A stretch of 64,000 bases of DNA, taken from assembly GCA_012295275.1 (NCBI GenBank), contig CM022666.1, positions 310,001 to 374,000 on the forward strand, written 5' to 3'. Source of the stretch: Chrysomallon squamiferum. Taxonomy: Eukaryota; Animalia; Mollusca. The notes beneath the pieces are model-generated. The model was not told the DNA's origin, did not search any database, and saw nothing but the letters and a program-made list of their open reading frames with translations. Shown here piece after piece: positions 13,458-18,521 of the stretch (positions are counted from its first letter, which is position 1; each line of letters starts with the position of its first letter). Made by a program: the position numbers and the translations under genes.

Positions 13458-13554
13458 TACTGACCAGTTTTGTTTGTTTTATTATTATTTATTTCTTCTA
13501 AAATTTATTTTGCAGTTGGAGTTCAAATAATGTAAGTAATTTTAAAATATTTTA

Positions 13555-13599
<45 letters not shown>

Positions 13600-14926
13600 G
13601 TGAAAATACCTTTCATTTATCTTATCAATATGAAAATTGAAATTATAAAAAGACAAAACAAACAAACAAACGATGAACAAAAAACAAAAACAAATAATAA
13701 TAATAACAATAATATTATTATTAATAATAATATAATAATAATATTTTCTTCCCAAAAATACTCAGTAATAACTGTGAACAAAGACTTTTTATATGTTTAT
13801 ATTCCAAGTTGTTTTAGGATTTATTGTTTTGTATTTCTTTAGCAAAACAGAGATCCAAGGTAAGTGTATATTAATTTACAACTGATTTTTTTAAGTATTT
13901 CTAAATGTATGTATTTATTTATCTATATATCTATCTATTTAGTTGTTTGTCTATCTGTCTGTTTATCTGTTTATTTATTTATCTCTTTACTTACTTATTT
14001 ATTTATTTATTTATTTATATTTATTTATATTTATTATTATCAAACAAATATTGCCTTAAAACACACTTTGTGTCTTTCTCTAAGTTAAAATGTTCTTGTT
14101 TTCTGTTTAGTAGGTTGTTGCTTTAATACAGGCGATTGACCTAGTTCATTATTTGTCATTTAAACTAAACATAATTTTAAAATTATTTTCTTCTTGTTTT
14201 GTCAAGCCTGAAAACTGTCTTCAACTCAGTCTTTCTTTAACACATCACCTGAAACGAGAACACTTCAGTTTGATTAAACAAATAAAAAATAAGAATTATT
14301 TTACTGATTAACTCTACAGTTTTCTTTTTTATATTTGCAGAAAGAACTGATATCGAGTAAGTACATTTTGTAAGTTTATTTTATATATTTTTATGTTTGT
14401 CTCTTTATTCATTATTATTAGTAAAAGTATTAGTGTGAGTATGTTGTTGTTGTCGCATCTGTTTTTGTTGTAGTTTTTATTCTTCCTTTTACTGTTGCTG
14501 CTGCTGCTGTTGTTGATACAGGATTCAATTGTTTTTCAGTGTTTTATCATAATGTGGAGTATTAATAATAAATAAAGAAAGCTGTTCAAAAAATATTTTC
14601 ATTTCTAATTATGTTATATACAGCATGTATTTAACAGATTACTTTGACTTCTTTCTTTAGAATAGAAAGACATGATGATGGTATGTAAATATTTAAATTA
14701 CTCGTTTATGATGCATTTAAATTGGGAAGGGTATTGGATGCGGCATTATTTTCCATCAGTTTATTTATTCATATTAAAATTTCAGTTTCTTAATTATTAA
14801 GATGAAAATAAATTTACTGCTACAAATAATGAAGATGATGATGATGATGGTGATGATAATCATAACAACTACAACAATAACAATAACAATAATTATATAA
14901 TGTTATATTTTTTTTTTATTTTATTA

Positions 14927-14963
<37 letters not shown>

Positions 14964-15969
14964 TTATTGTTGTTGTTGTTGTTGTTGTTGTTATTATTAT
15001 TATTTCTGTTCTTTGTATTACTCAGGTGAAGCTGATAAGCTGTAAGTAAATTAATAAAATTAGCGGACATAATTCCTATAATTTGTTTTCTATATTATTT
15101 TTATTTGTTACATTATGTAACTTGTTTGTTTGATTTTTATTACTATTATTTTTGTTCTTGTCATTATATCATTATTATCATTGTTATTGTGACTGGTAAT
15201 ATTTGGTTGCAATTGAAATAAATTAAATTTAATGTAATAGTATGTCTGATTTTGTGTTCTTATTTGATATGGTTGTGTGCATGTGTGTGTGTGTGTGTGT
15301 CTAAATTTCCTATCTGAATTTTTCTTTTTCTTTTTTTCTTTTAGAATGCAAAATCAGGATGGTGGTAAATATTAATATTTCTATTTCAGACTTAAATTTT
15401 GTTTATTTTTATTTTTATTTTCTTATTATTTTTTTTATTTTTTACTGATTCATTAATATTATTTTCCATCAACTTTTTATTTTATTCTAATCATTTAACT
15501 ATCAGATTAAAATAATAACATCAACTACTATTACTAGTACTACTAATAAAGTTTTTCGTTTCTTTAATTATTAAAATATATTATTATTATTGTTATTATT
15601 ATTATTATTATTATTTTAAAAATTATGAATTTTTTTTATATTTATTTTCCAGAAGAAGCTGTAAAACCGTAAGTAATTTACTATTTCTTTAATTGTTTCC
15701 TAATAATTTTTGGGTTATCCATTAAAATCAAATTAACATAAAAAAATATTTTTAAAATCCTGTTCTTATTTTAAATGAAAATAGTCTTCAAAACGGTCAT
15801 TTAAGTTCTAAACCAATTTTATCATCATTTCTTCCCATAACATTCAGTGATTGTTGAATGAATGTACATACATACAATACATTATGTTAATTTGTTAATT
15901 TTATTTTTGTTATAGTAATGATAAAACAACAACAACAACAACAACAACAACAATAATAATAATAATATA

Positions 15970-16010
<41 letters not shown>

Positions 16011-16529
16011 TACTATTATTAAAAAGTTAAAGAAACAATTTTAACGGTAATATTTGTTTTTAGTTAAAATTTAGGTTAATTTATATGTTTTAACTTAGGA
16101 TGTCAAAGTGCGCGTGTTTATCTGTGTGTGTTTCGATGTGTTTAAAATATATTTCTTTGTCTTTCTTTGTCTTCTTTCTTCAGAGTGGAGAATCAAGAAG
16201 ATGGTAAGTAAACAAACACAAAACAAACAAACAAACAAACAAACAAAACTACTGTTACTGCTATTTTGTCTCCCCCCCCCCGATACTGCTGTTACAACTA
16301 CTAAAGCAGCAACAACAACTTCTACAATTGTTGCTGTTACGACTACCACTCCGACAACTATTACTGCTATTACTGTTATTAGTTTTTCGGCTAATAGTAC
16401 ATTACTATGACTGCTATGAAAATAATAATAATACGAATAATAATTAAAATGTTCTAAATTTTATATAGTCTCTTGGTTTCTTAACCAATTTTGCCAAAAA
16501 TAAATTTTTCGTTTCTTTAATTATTCAAA

Positions 16530-17142: not shown

Positions 17143-17224
<82 letters not shown>

Positions 17225-17729
17225 AAAGTTAAAGAAACAGTTTTAACGGTAATATTTGTTTTTAGTTAAAATTTAGGTTAATTTATATGTTTTAACTTTG
17301 GATGTCAAAGTGCGCGTGTTTATCTGTGTGTGTTTCGATGTGTTTAAAATATATTTCTTTGTCTTTCTTTGTCTTCTTTCTTCAGAGTGGAGAATCTAGA
17401 AGATGGTAAGTAAACAAACACAAAACAAACAAACAAACAAACAAACAAACAAAACTACTATTACTGCTATTTTGTCTCCCCCCCCCCGATACTGCTGCTA
17501 CAACTACTAAAGCAGCAACAACAACTTCTACAATTGTTGCTGTTACGACTACCACATCGACAACTATTACTGTTATTAGTTTTTCGGCTAATAGTACATT
17601 ACTATGACTGCTATGAAAATAATAATAATAATAATAATAATTAAAATGTTCTAAATTTTTTATAGTCTCTTGGTTTCTTAACCAATTTTGCCAAAAATAA
17701 ATTTTTCGTTTCTTTAATTATAAAATATA

Positions 17730-17775
<46 letters not shown>

Positions 17776-18408
17776 TTTGTTTTAAAAATTATGAATTTTT
17801 GTTTTTATATTTATTTTCCAGAAGAAGCTGTAAAACCGTAAGTAATTTACTATTTCTTTAATTGTTTCCTAATAATTTTTGGGTTATCCATTAAAATCAA
17901 ATTAACATAATCTGTAGAAGAAAGTGTTTATAAGACTATGAAGGAACTAACTGGTTTACTGTGTTAGAATATCAGATTTATCCTGCGAATGTTATTATTA
18001 TTATTAAAAAGTTAAATAAACAATTTTAACGGTAATATTTGTTTTTAGTTAAAATTTAGGTTAATTTATATGTTTTAACTTTGGATGTTAAAGTGCGAGT
18101 GTTTATCTGTGTGTTTCGATGTGTTTAACATTTTTGTCTTTCTTTGTCTTCTTTCATCAGAATGGAGAATCAGGAAGATGGTAAGTAAGCAAACACAAAA
18201 CAAACAAACAAACAAACAAACACAAAACAAACAAACACATTTAAAACACATTTACAACCTTTATTCACATCCATTACACAAAAACCCACAGCAAACATAA
18301 ACGATGTTAGTTGGGCATTGCTGAAATACAATAGCAATTATATCGAGGTTATACATAAACATACGCATTTTTATTTAATTGTTTATAAATTGTATTATGT
18401 TATTCTAC

Positions 18409-18456
<48 letters not shown>

Positions 18457-18521
18457 TCTTCTTCTTCTTTTTCTTTTTTTAAACAGAAGCAGTAAAGCCA
18501 ATAACGCTGAAGTCGCCGTAG
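828..18521 (+). CDS. Gene A: multi-exon type-I membrane protein, signal peptide + 5 Ig-like domains + TM + micro-exon-built acidic tail (~840 aa)
   Basis: Manual exon chain with GT-AG boundaries; total 2523 nt (multiple of 3, no internal stop) when the dead exon at 16619 and one of the 16184/17386 exons are omitted; stop TAG 18519-18521; AATAAA at 18711. Confidence 0.85.
1675..2023 (+). mobile_element. Decayed Tc1-family transposase N-terminal fragment in gene A intron 1
   Basis: Frameshifted pieces MGRCPGLTENQRREAVGRVNA, GSRSGRPRLTTPRD and TVRTRLHAAGLQTRRPVVDVPLTARHIQQRL resemble the Tc1 paired HTH region with GRPR linker; no DDE domain, no clear TIR pair. Confidence 0.75.
2520..2915 (+). 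CDS. Gene A Ig-like domain 1 exon
   Basis: ttatag acceptor, A|gtaagc donor, 396 nt phase 1/1; VTIRC ... DEGYYLC. Confidence 0.9.
3177..3206 (+). CDS. Gene A linker micro-exon 1 (SATLPKKKIV)
   Basis: ttacag / gtttgt, 30 nt, phase 1/1, open. Confidence 0.75.
   Translation: MLHYRRKKL
4029..4424 (+). CDS. Gene A Ig-like domain 2 exon
   Basis: gcttag acceptor (in-frame alternative 6 nt downstream), A|gtaagt donor, 396 nt; LSVMC ... YAGIYIC. Confidence 0.9.
5172..7040. repeat. 26-bp minisatellite (TCAGATTAGACTGTAATCCTTTCCCC), about 70 copies
   Basis: Directly visible tandem array with variant units; no spacers. Confidence 0.95.
7287..7316 (+). CDS. Gene A linker micro-exon 2 (STKNPISTTR)
   Basis: taacag / gtattt, 30 nt, phase 1/1. 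Confidence 0.75.
7899..8294 (+). CDS. Gene A Ig-like domain 3 exon
   Basis: gttcag / A|gtaagt, 396 nt; MTIRC ... SAQYLCHC. Confidence 0.9.
8811..8840 (+). CDS. Gene A linker micro-exon 3 (KGKEPYPESL)
   Basis: ttacag / gtttgt, 30 nt, phase 1/1. Confidence 0.75.
   Translation, partial: RAKNRILKV
9638..10036 (+). CDS. Gene A Ig-like domain 4 exon
   Basis: gtttag / A|gtaagt, 399 nt; LTITPNLVYEG..VRC ... DGEVFLC. Confidence 0.9.
10374..10406 (+). CDS. Gene A linker micro-exon 4 (KIESLHTKTFE)
   Basis: ttacag / T|gtatgt, 33 nt; same length and donor as gene B linker 4. Confidence 0.75.
11238..11410 (-). mobile_element. Mariner transposon 3' end remnant
   Basis: Minus strand reads RGIEKLVDRCEEVVNNNREYIID* (mariner C-terminal GIxKLxxRWxxVVxxxGxY-like), followed by TIR-like TA-TTGGGCTGAGGAATAAGTCACTGCGGTT at 11238-11267. 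Confidence 0.7.
11802..12194 (+). CDS. Gene A Ig-like domain 5 exon
   Basis: long pyrimidine tract + ctag, G|gtaact, 393 nt; VSFRC ... DSGKYGC. Confidence 0.9.
12433..12462 (+). CDS. Gene A linker micro-exon 5 (DLFLIRQSSS)
   Basis: ttacag / gtgtgt, 30 nt; parallels gene [11 protein letters not shown]. Confidence 0.7.
12944..13072 (+). CDS. Gene A transmembrane exon
   Basis: EPDS-LVIPVVVVVVFFLLAVALLA-KWYRR stop-transfer; caatag acceptor, A|gtatta donor. Confidence 0.85.
13516..18521 (+). CDS. Gene A cytoplasmic micro-exon array and terminal exon
   Basis: Exons 13516-13531(16), 13843-13859(17), 14341-14356(16), 14661-14680(20), 15026-15041(16), 15345-15364(20), 15653-15668(16), 16184-16203(20), 17386-17405(20), 17822-17837(16), 18161-18180(20), terminal 18487-18521; AG/GTAAGT-type sites; encode EEAVKPVENQED-like 12-aa units. 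Confidence 0.75.
15548..18235. repeat. Recent tandem triplication (about 1-1.2 kb units) of a micro-exon pair with introns
   Basis: Near-identical intron blocks starting about 15548, 16501 and 17698. Confidence 0.85.
16619..16634 (+). pseudogene. Dead 16-nt micro-exon copy (acceptor AG mutated to AC)
   Basis: ttttccAC|atgaagctgaaaaacc|gtaagt versus ttttccAG|aagaagctgtaaaacc|gtaagt in sister copies. Confidence 0.75.

What the first reader, a model, noticed from the sequence alone, without database searches (positions are those of the whole stretch)
13516..18521. Cytoplasmic tail built from frame-complementary micro-exon pairs (16+20 nt = 12 aa)
Seen: no tail exon is a multiple of 3; phase alternates 1->2->1 so only pairs keep frame. 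Translation: IGVQI-IKTEIQ-ERTDI-EIERHDD-GEADK-LMQNQDG-EEAVK-PVENQED-EEAVK-PMENQED-EAVKPITLKSP. Known: typical animal micro-exons, and schistosome MEG micro-exons, are mostly symmetric multiples of 3. Inference: skipping any adjacent even number of exons tunes tail length in 12-aa steps, and odd skipping truncates or triggers NMD, a built-in parity rule.
Basis: partly seen in the sequence, partly recalled or inferred. Interest (0 to 1): 0.85.

Follow-up and report, generated by a model that had tools for sequence, protein, structure and literature searches.

The report
Receptor tail grown by exon-pair duplication
An immunoglobulin-type surface receptor gene, likely from a snail, builds its inner tail from ten or more tiny exons that keep the reading frame only in pairs, and the tail likely grows and shrinks by copying whole two-exon blocks of DNA rather than by regulated exon skipping.

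Summary
The structure is real. A five-Ig, single-pass receptor gene (839-codon model, 828-18521) has tail exons of 16,17,16,20,16,20,16,20,16,20 nt, phases alternating 1-2-1. Two RNA contigs show five tail junctions directly. Two neighbouring paralogues have the same alternation (12 and 9 exons). Nearest named relatives are gastropod. The pairing is best explained by tandem duplication of a phase 1-1 two-exon block: every second exon is alike, introns included (1,060 bp at 93%). Both RNA contig ends fit an allele with two identical consecutive units, suggesting length varies between haplotypes, as in chicken BG1. Splicing-level tuning is not shown: no skipped isoform was seen, though contigs drop rare forms. 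The parity arithmetic is only partly as claimed: odd skips never keep the C-terminus, but 410 of 512 even subsets fail too, and single skips of exons 6-10 escape the 50-nt NMD rule. The scan noted a similar duplicated exon pair in another genome (e1-9175242). Verdict: new variant of a known kind; interest moderate.

The parts
828..876 (+). Gene A first coding exon, signal-peptide-like, ends in phase 1
   Evidence: ATG and GTAAGT donor; opens the 839-codon frame; signal peptide is my reading of the hydrophobic N-terminus
2520..12194 (+). Gene A ectodomain: five V-set-like Ig exons (2520-2915, 4035-4424, 7899-8294, 9638-10036, 11802-12194), all phase 1-1
3177..12462 (+). Five predicted symmetric linker mini-exons of 30-33 nt between domains (3177-3206, 7287-7316, 8811-8840, 10374-10406, 12433-12462)
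   Evidence: canonical sites and open frame; not checked in RNA
12944..13072 (+). Transmembrane exon plus juxtamembrane stretch, 129 nt, phase 1-1
   Evidence: RNA contig X1 covers 12943-13072 then leaves the genome
13516..13531 (+). Tail exon 1, 16 nt, phase 1-2
   Evidence: RNA join seen
13843..13859 (+). Tail exon 2, 17 nt, phase 2-1
   Evidence: first 14 nt seen joined in RNA
14341..14356 (+). Tail exon 3, 16 nt, phase 1-2
   Evidence: splice sites and frame; contig length fits inclusion
14661..14680 (+). Tail exon 4, 20 nt, phase 2-1
15026..15041 (+). Tail exon 5, 16 nt, phase 1-2
15345..15364 (+). Tail exon 6, 20 nt, phase 2-1
15653..15668 (+). Tail exon 7, 16 nt, phase 1-2, identical to exon 9
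16184..16203 (+). Tail exon 8, 20 nt, phase 2-1
16619..16634 (+).
   Evidence: use in RNA not seen
17386..17405 (+).
   Evidence: its last 13 nt stand in RNA contig X2
17822..17837 (+). Tail exon 9, 16 nt, phase 1-2
   Evidence: sequence seen joined in RNA
18161..18180 (+). Tail exon 10, 20 nt, phase 2-1
   Evidence: laid as a piece of RNA contig X2
18487..18521 (+). Terminal coding exon with stop; 3' UTR seen in RNA to 18561
15740..17992 (+). Recent tandem duplication carrying exons and introns: 15740-16789 vs 16963-17992, 1,060 bp at 93%
   Evidence: self-BLAST, alignments
19286..38620 (+). Paralogue B: five Ig exons, TM exon 30579-30695, predicted tail exons 16,17,16,20,16,20,22,20,16,20,19,20 nt (31661-38267)
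   Evidence: not checked in RNA; first tail exon has a second candidate at 31996-32011
41344..57500 (-). Paralogue C: five Ig exons, TM exon 46064-45942, predicted tail exons 13,20,19,20,19,20,19,20,19 nt (45120-41994); 3' end unresolved
   Evidence: not checked in RNA

Best explanation
The acidic tail of this five-Ig single-pass receptor is encoded by a chain of micro-exons with alternating phases that most likely arose, and still changes length, by tandem duplication and loss of a two-exon DNA block that begins and ends in phase 1. Steps: (1) shown: the exons exist, alternate 1-2/2-1, and five junctions are spliced in RNA; (2) shown: every second exon is alike and the youngest blocks are duplicated with their introns; (3) inferred: unequal crossing-over adds or removes whole blocks, while gain or loss of a single exon shifts the frame and is purged, so parity is enforced by selection on DNA; (4) inferred: the main transcript includes all intact exons, and tail length differs between haplotypes in 12-aa units; (5) inferred from composition: the tail is an acidic, probably disordered spacer or low-affinity binding region without tyrosine signalling motifs, in a fast-evolving receptor cluster of likely recognition or adhesion function.
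For: Duplicated blocks of 1,060 bp at 93% and shorter blocks at 89-95% cover exon plus intron. Same-parity exons are more alike than opposite-parity ones in all three genes (permutation p 0.002, 0.002, 0.009); against letter shuffles same-parity similarity is exceeded 0 of 300 times in each gene, opposite-parity similarity 196, 289 and 139 of 300 times. In gene C the donor hexamer alternates GTGAGT/GTAAGT over all 9 exons. Exon lengths drift only in threes (13/16/19/22 and 17/20) across three genes whose position-matched Ig domains are 23-44% identical. RNA contig ends (133 nt past the TM exon in X1; 29 nt before exon 10 in X2) are both reproduced by the 4 of 15 k=31 graph models that hold two consecutive identical 16+20 units and by none of the other 11; X2's end is reproduced by 0 of 294,912 pairs of linear isoforms of the window haplotype, X1's by 6 of 73,728, all needing an odd skip pattern. 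Ten of twelve donors in gene A are the full consensus GTAAGT. [quoted passage not shown]
Against: RNA support is two contigs from one study; only 30 of the 133 loose letters in X1 were shown, so junctions between exons 2 and 8 are inferred from length. X2 and X3 gave no TM contig, X1 and X3 no terminal contig. The allele argument rests on a plain unitig model, not the assembler actually used, and a contig can end by low depth. No second assembled haplotype or genome was available. Receptor function is not tested.
Confidence: 0.7

Rival explanations
1. Regulated pair skipping: the cell skips adjacent exon pairs to make a ladder of tails 11-12 aa apart.
For: Adjacent pair skips keep the frame. 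Coordinated exon pairs exist in humans, a third of the coding cases with lengths not both divisible by three (PMC5793787, passages). BG0 shows skipped tail exons among about 26% variant transcripts (PMC5043582, passages). Contigs hide rare forms.
Against: No skipped form seen; the three pair-skip mixtures tried gave contig ends of 69/54, 144/-13 and 122/18 instead of 133/29. Donors are mostly full consensus, whereas regulated fly micro-exons have weak 5' sites (PMC8797185, passages). Frame complementarity needs no regulation to explain it.
Confidence: 0.15
2. Truncation or decay switch: single-exon skipping is used on purpose to cut the tail or to destroy the mRNA, as with the 22-bp tail exon of Hydractinia Alr2.
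For: Every odd skip loses the native C-terminus (0 of 512). Alr2 transcripts lacking a 22-bp exon truncate the tail (PMC9546547, passages); BG intron read-through truncates tails (PMC5938342, passages).
Against: No odd-skipped RNA seen. A switch needs one such exon, not ten. Skips of exons 6-10 would escape the 50-nt rule and make frameshifted, basic C-termini. The 50-nt rule is mammalian (recalled) and untested in molluscs.
Confidence: 0.1
3. Sub-question: the broken 16-nt copy at 16619-16634 is an assembly or polishing error in a collapsed repeat, and the real gene has twelve intact tail exons.
For: Six substitutions fall within 44 bp around that exon (16618-16661), all transversions, five of them to the complementary base, while the exon 7 and exon 9 surroundings show 0 substitutions over 128 aligned bases. 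The RNA contig ends imply an intact middle exon in the sampled animals.
Against: RNA implies two units of the 17386 type, which the window does not have even if the acceptor were intact (that model gave no break), so a different allele is needed anyway; other duplicated blocks also carry many such transversions (6 of 13); a copy released from selection would gather changes.
Confidence: 0.3

Closest known systems
Chicken BG genes (BG1, BG0; butyrophilin family); PMC5043582, PMC5938342
   Same: Clustered Ig-V single-pass receptor genes whose long tail is built from many tiny repeat exons; tail length varies between alleles by copies of a multi-exon repeat through unequal crossing-over.
   Different: BG exons are 21 nt, each one heptad of a presumed coiled coil, and BG has one V domain. 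Here the exons are 13-22 nt, none divisible by three, the unit is a two-exon 11-14 aa block, and there are five V-like domains; no sequence relationship to BG appeared in the searches.
Hydractinia Alr1/Alr2 allorecognition family; PMC9546547
   Same: Invertebrate cluster of divergent V-set-like single-pass receptors, one domain per exon; Alr2 has a frame-shifting 22-bp tail exon whose skipping truncates the tail.
   Different: Alr has 1-3 Ig domains plus an Fn3-like ECS and often ITAM/ITIM motifs; gene A has five Ig exons, no ECS-sized exon, and one tyrosine only at the membrane edge. The passages I saw describe no array of alternating micro-exons.
Schistosoma micro-exon genes (MEG); PMC4350168
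   Same: Long runs of very small coding exons.
   Different: MEG exons are symmetric, so any exon can be skipped, and the products occur in secretions or glands; here single exons cannot be skipped in frame and the run encodes a cytoplasmic tail.
Gigantopelta aegis uncharacterised Ig proteins XP_041376960.1, XP_041373743.1 and LOC121386525
   Same: Closest named relatives of the Ig domain (E 2.6e-28 over three domains, 35% identity); LOC121386525 is also single-pass.
   Different: Different domain make-up; the LOC121386525 tail has several tyrosines and no 12-aa repeat by eye; their exon structure could not be read.

Membership tests
Ig superfamily, V-set-like single-pass receptor | Ig-V fold domains with the conserved cysteine pair | tested here: met
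   Pfam V-set at E<=0.05 in 10 of 15 domains of the three genes, only 1 of 15 above the gathering score; two invariant Cys in 21 aligned sequences; Atlas top hit V-set 0.96. No structure was predicted.
Ig superfamily, V-set-like single-pass receptor | Signal peptide, one TM helix, cytoplasmic tail in one frame | tested here: met
   839-codon open model with canonical sites; hydrophobic segments read by eye; TM-to-tail join in RNA
Chicken BG / butyrophilin | Single V domain (BG) with butyrophilin homology | tested here: not met
   Five V-like exons; no BG or butyrophilin among the named hits (10 of the 18 hits were looked up)
Chicken BG / butyrophilin | Tail of 21-nt heptad exons | tested here: not met
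   Exons of 16, 17 and 20 nt; 12-aa unit
Chicken BG / butyrophilin | Allelic copy-number change of a multi-exon tail repeat (works-like feature) | tested here: inconclusive
   Duplicated blocks shown; a second allele only inferred from contig ends
Chicken BG / butyrophilin | Coiled-coil dimeric tail | not tested
   No coiled-coil prediction was run; the last repeats each carry a proline
Schistosome MEG | Symmetric micro-exons, multiples of three | tested here: not met
   0 of 10 internal tail exons are divisible by three
Schistosome MEG | Protein diversity made by exon skipping | tested here: inconclusive
   No skip seen, but only contigs were available
Hydractinia Alr | 1-3 Ig domains plus Fn3-like ECS | tested here: not met
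   Five Ig exons, then a 30-nt linker and the TM exon
Hydractinia Alr | ITAM/ITIM tyrosine motifs in the tail (many members) | tested here: not met
   Gene A: one Tyr, at the membrane edge
Hydractinia Alr | Allele-specific homophilic binding and extreme polymorphism | not testable with these tools
   Needs population sequencing and cell-aggregation assays

The most novel reading that the evidence does not exclude
A mollusc receptor family has kept, across deep paralogue divergence, tails made wholly of 9-12 consecutive frame-shifting micro-exons because the alternation itself is used: pairs are skipped in a regulated way to set tail length while single mis-splices are filtered out, giving a parity-checked splicing ladder on top of allelic copy-number change.
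Probability: 0.15. Interest if true: 0.75.

Novelty: new variant of a known kind. Interest (0 to 1): 0.45.

Why it matters
Repeat-exon tails and micro-exon runs in the papers I read are built from symmetric exons, and in human genes similar neighbouring exons are mostly symmetric (108 of 118 highly similar neighbours; PMC3632108, passages). Here three paralogues run 9-12 consecutive frame-shifting exons of 13-22 nt, so every single skip ruins the tail. That makes the locus a compact natural test of how accurately micro-exons are spliced and of which NMD rule molluscs follow (skips of exons 1-5 versus 6-10 fall on either side of the 50-nt rule), and the haplotype with one broken half-pair is a ready experiment on whether partner exons are spliced together. 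It also flags an undescribed cluster of five-Ig receptors whose tails gene predictors would likely miss. If only DNA-level duplication is at work, it is a convergent, BG-like curiosity rather than a new mechanism.

Tried and rejected
No genome is held for this window, so no further paralogues or alleles could be read. Word-based protein searches found no full-length relative: 0 of 102 candidates, 2 of 6,073 for the Gigantopelta protein, 1 weak newt hit of 7,995 for the domain profile; so no annotated isoform series was available to test pair skipping. My first TM donor (13030) was wrong and was replaced by 13072; the terminal exon start was corrected from 18488 to 18487. Depths of X4 contigs over the duplicated blocks (about 27 to 63) were inconsistent with any single copy number and are not used. 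Absence of TM contigs in X2/X3 and of terminal contigs in X1/X3 is no evidence (filtering). The X1 and X3 contigs laid at 17956-18010 match a dispersed repeat, not the gene. Closing gene C's tail with a 17-nt GC-donor exon at 41543-41527 gave an in-frame stop; left unresolved. Retention of the intron after the TM exon was not seen in X1. Ten literature searches listed no paper whose title or abstract start describes an alternating-phase micro-exon tail; one search returned nothing; the library lacks most subscription papers and I opened no supplements (BG supplementary figures S3-S4 could bear on skip frequencies). Earlier-finding look-ups by place, sequence and a second word set were empty.
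Full report
Setting. The window is AT-rich, microsatellite-rich animal DNA holding three related genes, each with five V-set-like Ig exons, a transmembrane exon and a run of micro-exons: A (+, 828-18521), B (+, about 19250-38620) and C (-, about 57500-41340). Pfam V-set matches 10 of 15 domains at E<=0.05, one above the curated cut-off; two cysteines are invariant in the alignment; the Atlas top hit is V-set at 0.96. The best database relative is an uncharacterised Gigantopelta aegis protein (E 2.6e-28), so the organism is likely a gastropod; this is an inference from few hits. 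Gene A reads as one 839-codon frame over 23 exons with canonical sites; the twelve exons up to the TM exon all end in phase 1, including five 30-33-nt symmetric linkers.

The observation. Four public runs hold the locus, three recorded as RNA from one study. An X1 contig covers the TM exon to 13072 and goes on with exon 1 and the first 14 nt of exon 2; its unaligned part is 133 nt long. An X2 contig joins 13 nt of the 17386-17405 type, a 16-nt exon of the exon 7/9 sequence, exon 10 and the terminal exon. So five junction types are seen letter by letter; those between exons 2 and 8 are inferred from the contig length (exons 1-7 sum to 121 nt, plus 12). X2 and X3 gave no TM contig and X1 and X3 no terminal contig. 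Sense-strand candidate counts were 20, 10, 10 in the three tails versus 0, 1, 0 antisense. A downstream AAG would turn the broken copy into an in-frame 10-nt exon; inclusion of the partner alone gives a stop 42 nt before the last junction.

A family trait. Gene B has twelve predicted tail exons (16,17,16,20,16,20,22,20,16,20,19,20) in one open frame, gene C nine (13,20,19,20,19,20,19,20,19) with an unresolved end. Neither was checked in RNA. Position-matched Ig domains are 28-44% identical between A and B and 23-30% between C and the others, so the layout is old, and exon lengths have drifted only in steps of three. Same-parity tail exons are also more alike between genes than shuffles (0, 8 and 0 of 300 shuffles reach the observed score).

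Origin of the parity. The youngest part of tail A is a set of DNA duplications that carry exons with their introns (1,060 bp at 93%; blocks of 178-247 bp at 89-95%). Every second exon is alike in all three genes and neighbours are not, and in gene C the donor hexamer alternates with the exon class. The repeating unit is thus a block of two exons that starts and ends in phase 1 and has an internal phase-2 intron. Symmetric units are the ones that survive tandem duplication (established exon-phase logic; PMC3632108, passages), so strict alternation follows without any splicing regulation.

Allelic length change. Assembled contigs break where a 30-mer recurs. An exhaustive test of 1,536 linear isoforms of the window haplotype in pairs gave X2's end 0 of 294,912 times and X1's 6 of 73,728 times (first isoform fixed to hold exons 1-7). 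The sampled animals therefore likely carry another allele, with an intact middle exon and at least two units of the 17386 type. This is indirect: plain unitigs stand in for the real assembler, the two ends come from different samples, and low depth can end a contig. The broken copy in the window may be a decaying allele or a consensus error; six transversions cluster in 44 bp around it.

All nine adjacent-pair skips keep the frame. Of 1,024 exon subsets, 102 keep the native C-terminus, all with an even number skipped; 410 even subsets do not; 385 subsets place a stop more than 50 nt before the last junction and 537 escape that rule. Single skips of exons 1-5 leave 60-134 nt, those of exons 6-10 at most 35 nt. 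The rule itself is mammalian (recalled), and 3' UTR introns of gene A were not examined. No skipped RNA was seen, and 10 of 12 donors are full consensus, unlike regulated fly micro-exons with weak donors (PMC8797185, passages). Frame-driven apparent coordination through NMD is already discussed for human exon pairs (PMC5793787, passages). Tuning by splicing stays possible but has no support here.

What the tail may do. The 87 residues after the TM core are rich in Glu, Asp, Lys and Gln, net charge -11, with no tyrosine beyond the membrane edge, so ITAM/ITIM signalling is not indicated for gene A; an unstructured spacer or multivalent weak-binding region is my inference. Function of the receptor (recognition or adhesion) is inferred from its architecture and clustering only.

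Comparison. It works most like chicken BG1, whose tail varies from 13 to 21 exons by a four-exon repeat, ascribed to unequal crossing-over (PMC5043582, section 3.2 read whole plus passages; PMC5938342, passages), but it fails BG membership on domain number and exon size. Hydractinia Alr2 offers a single frame-shifting tail exon (PMC9546547, passages). MEGs are symmetric (PMC4350168, passages). Ten searches listed no description of an alternating-phase micro-exon tail, within a library that lacks most subscription papers.

Verdict. Real, partly RNA-verified, shared by three paralogues; best read as a convergent BG-like repeat tail whose unit is an asymmetric exon pair. New variant of a known kind; interest 0.45, rising to about 0.75 if regulated pair skipping were shown (probability about 0.15).

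Noticed in passing
window 828-57500: Cluster of three five-Ig V-set-like single-pass receptor genes (two on +, one on -) with no close full-length database relative; possibly an undescribed molluscan receptor family.
   Followed up: partly
window 3177-3206, 7287-7316, 8811-8840, 10374-10406, 12433-12462: Each Ig exon of gene A is followed by a symmetric 30-33-nt linker exon, the opposite design to the tail; similar candidates at 25004-25033 and 28766-28798 in gene B. These could be skipped singly in frame.
   Followed up: partly
window 38598-38601: Gene B terminal exon has tandem acceptors 3 nt apart: the first gives an immediate stop, the second six more residues.
   Followed up: no
window 31661-31676 and 31996-32011: Two 16-nt candidates for gene B's first tail exon, both in frame; one may be false or they may be mutually exclusive.
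   Followed up: no
window 41659-41527, minus strand: Degenerate-looking last pair in gene C: a 17-nt copy of the 19-nt exon class with a GC donor and an acceptor shifted by 2 nt, preceded by a 22-nt candidate; together 39 nt like an intact pair, but the chain could not be closed onto the terminal exon.
   Followed up: partly
window 16770-16960 and 17956-17994: Fragment of a dispersed repeat inside the tail introns; its edge matches 1.5-kb contigs in two RNA runs. It is about 170 bp longer in the middle block than in the last block and may mark a transposon insertion or deletion.
   Followed up: no
window 5190-7040: 26-bp minisatellite, 71 copies, in an ectodomain intron of gene A; each unit holds a pyrimidine tract followed by CAG, an acceptor-like motif.
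   Followed up: no
window 36700-37103: 30-bp minisatellite, 13.5 copies at 97%, inside a tail intron of gene B.
   Followed up: no
window 13014: A>G difference in the TM exon shared by RNA run X1 and run X4, so both come from a haplotype other than the window's.
   Followed up: no
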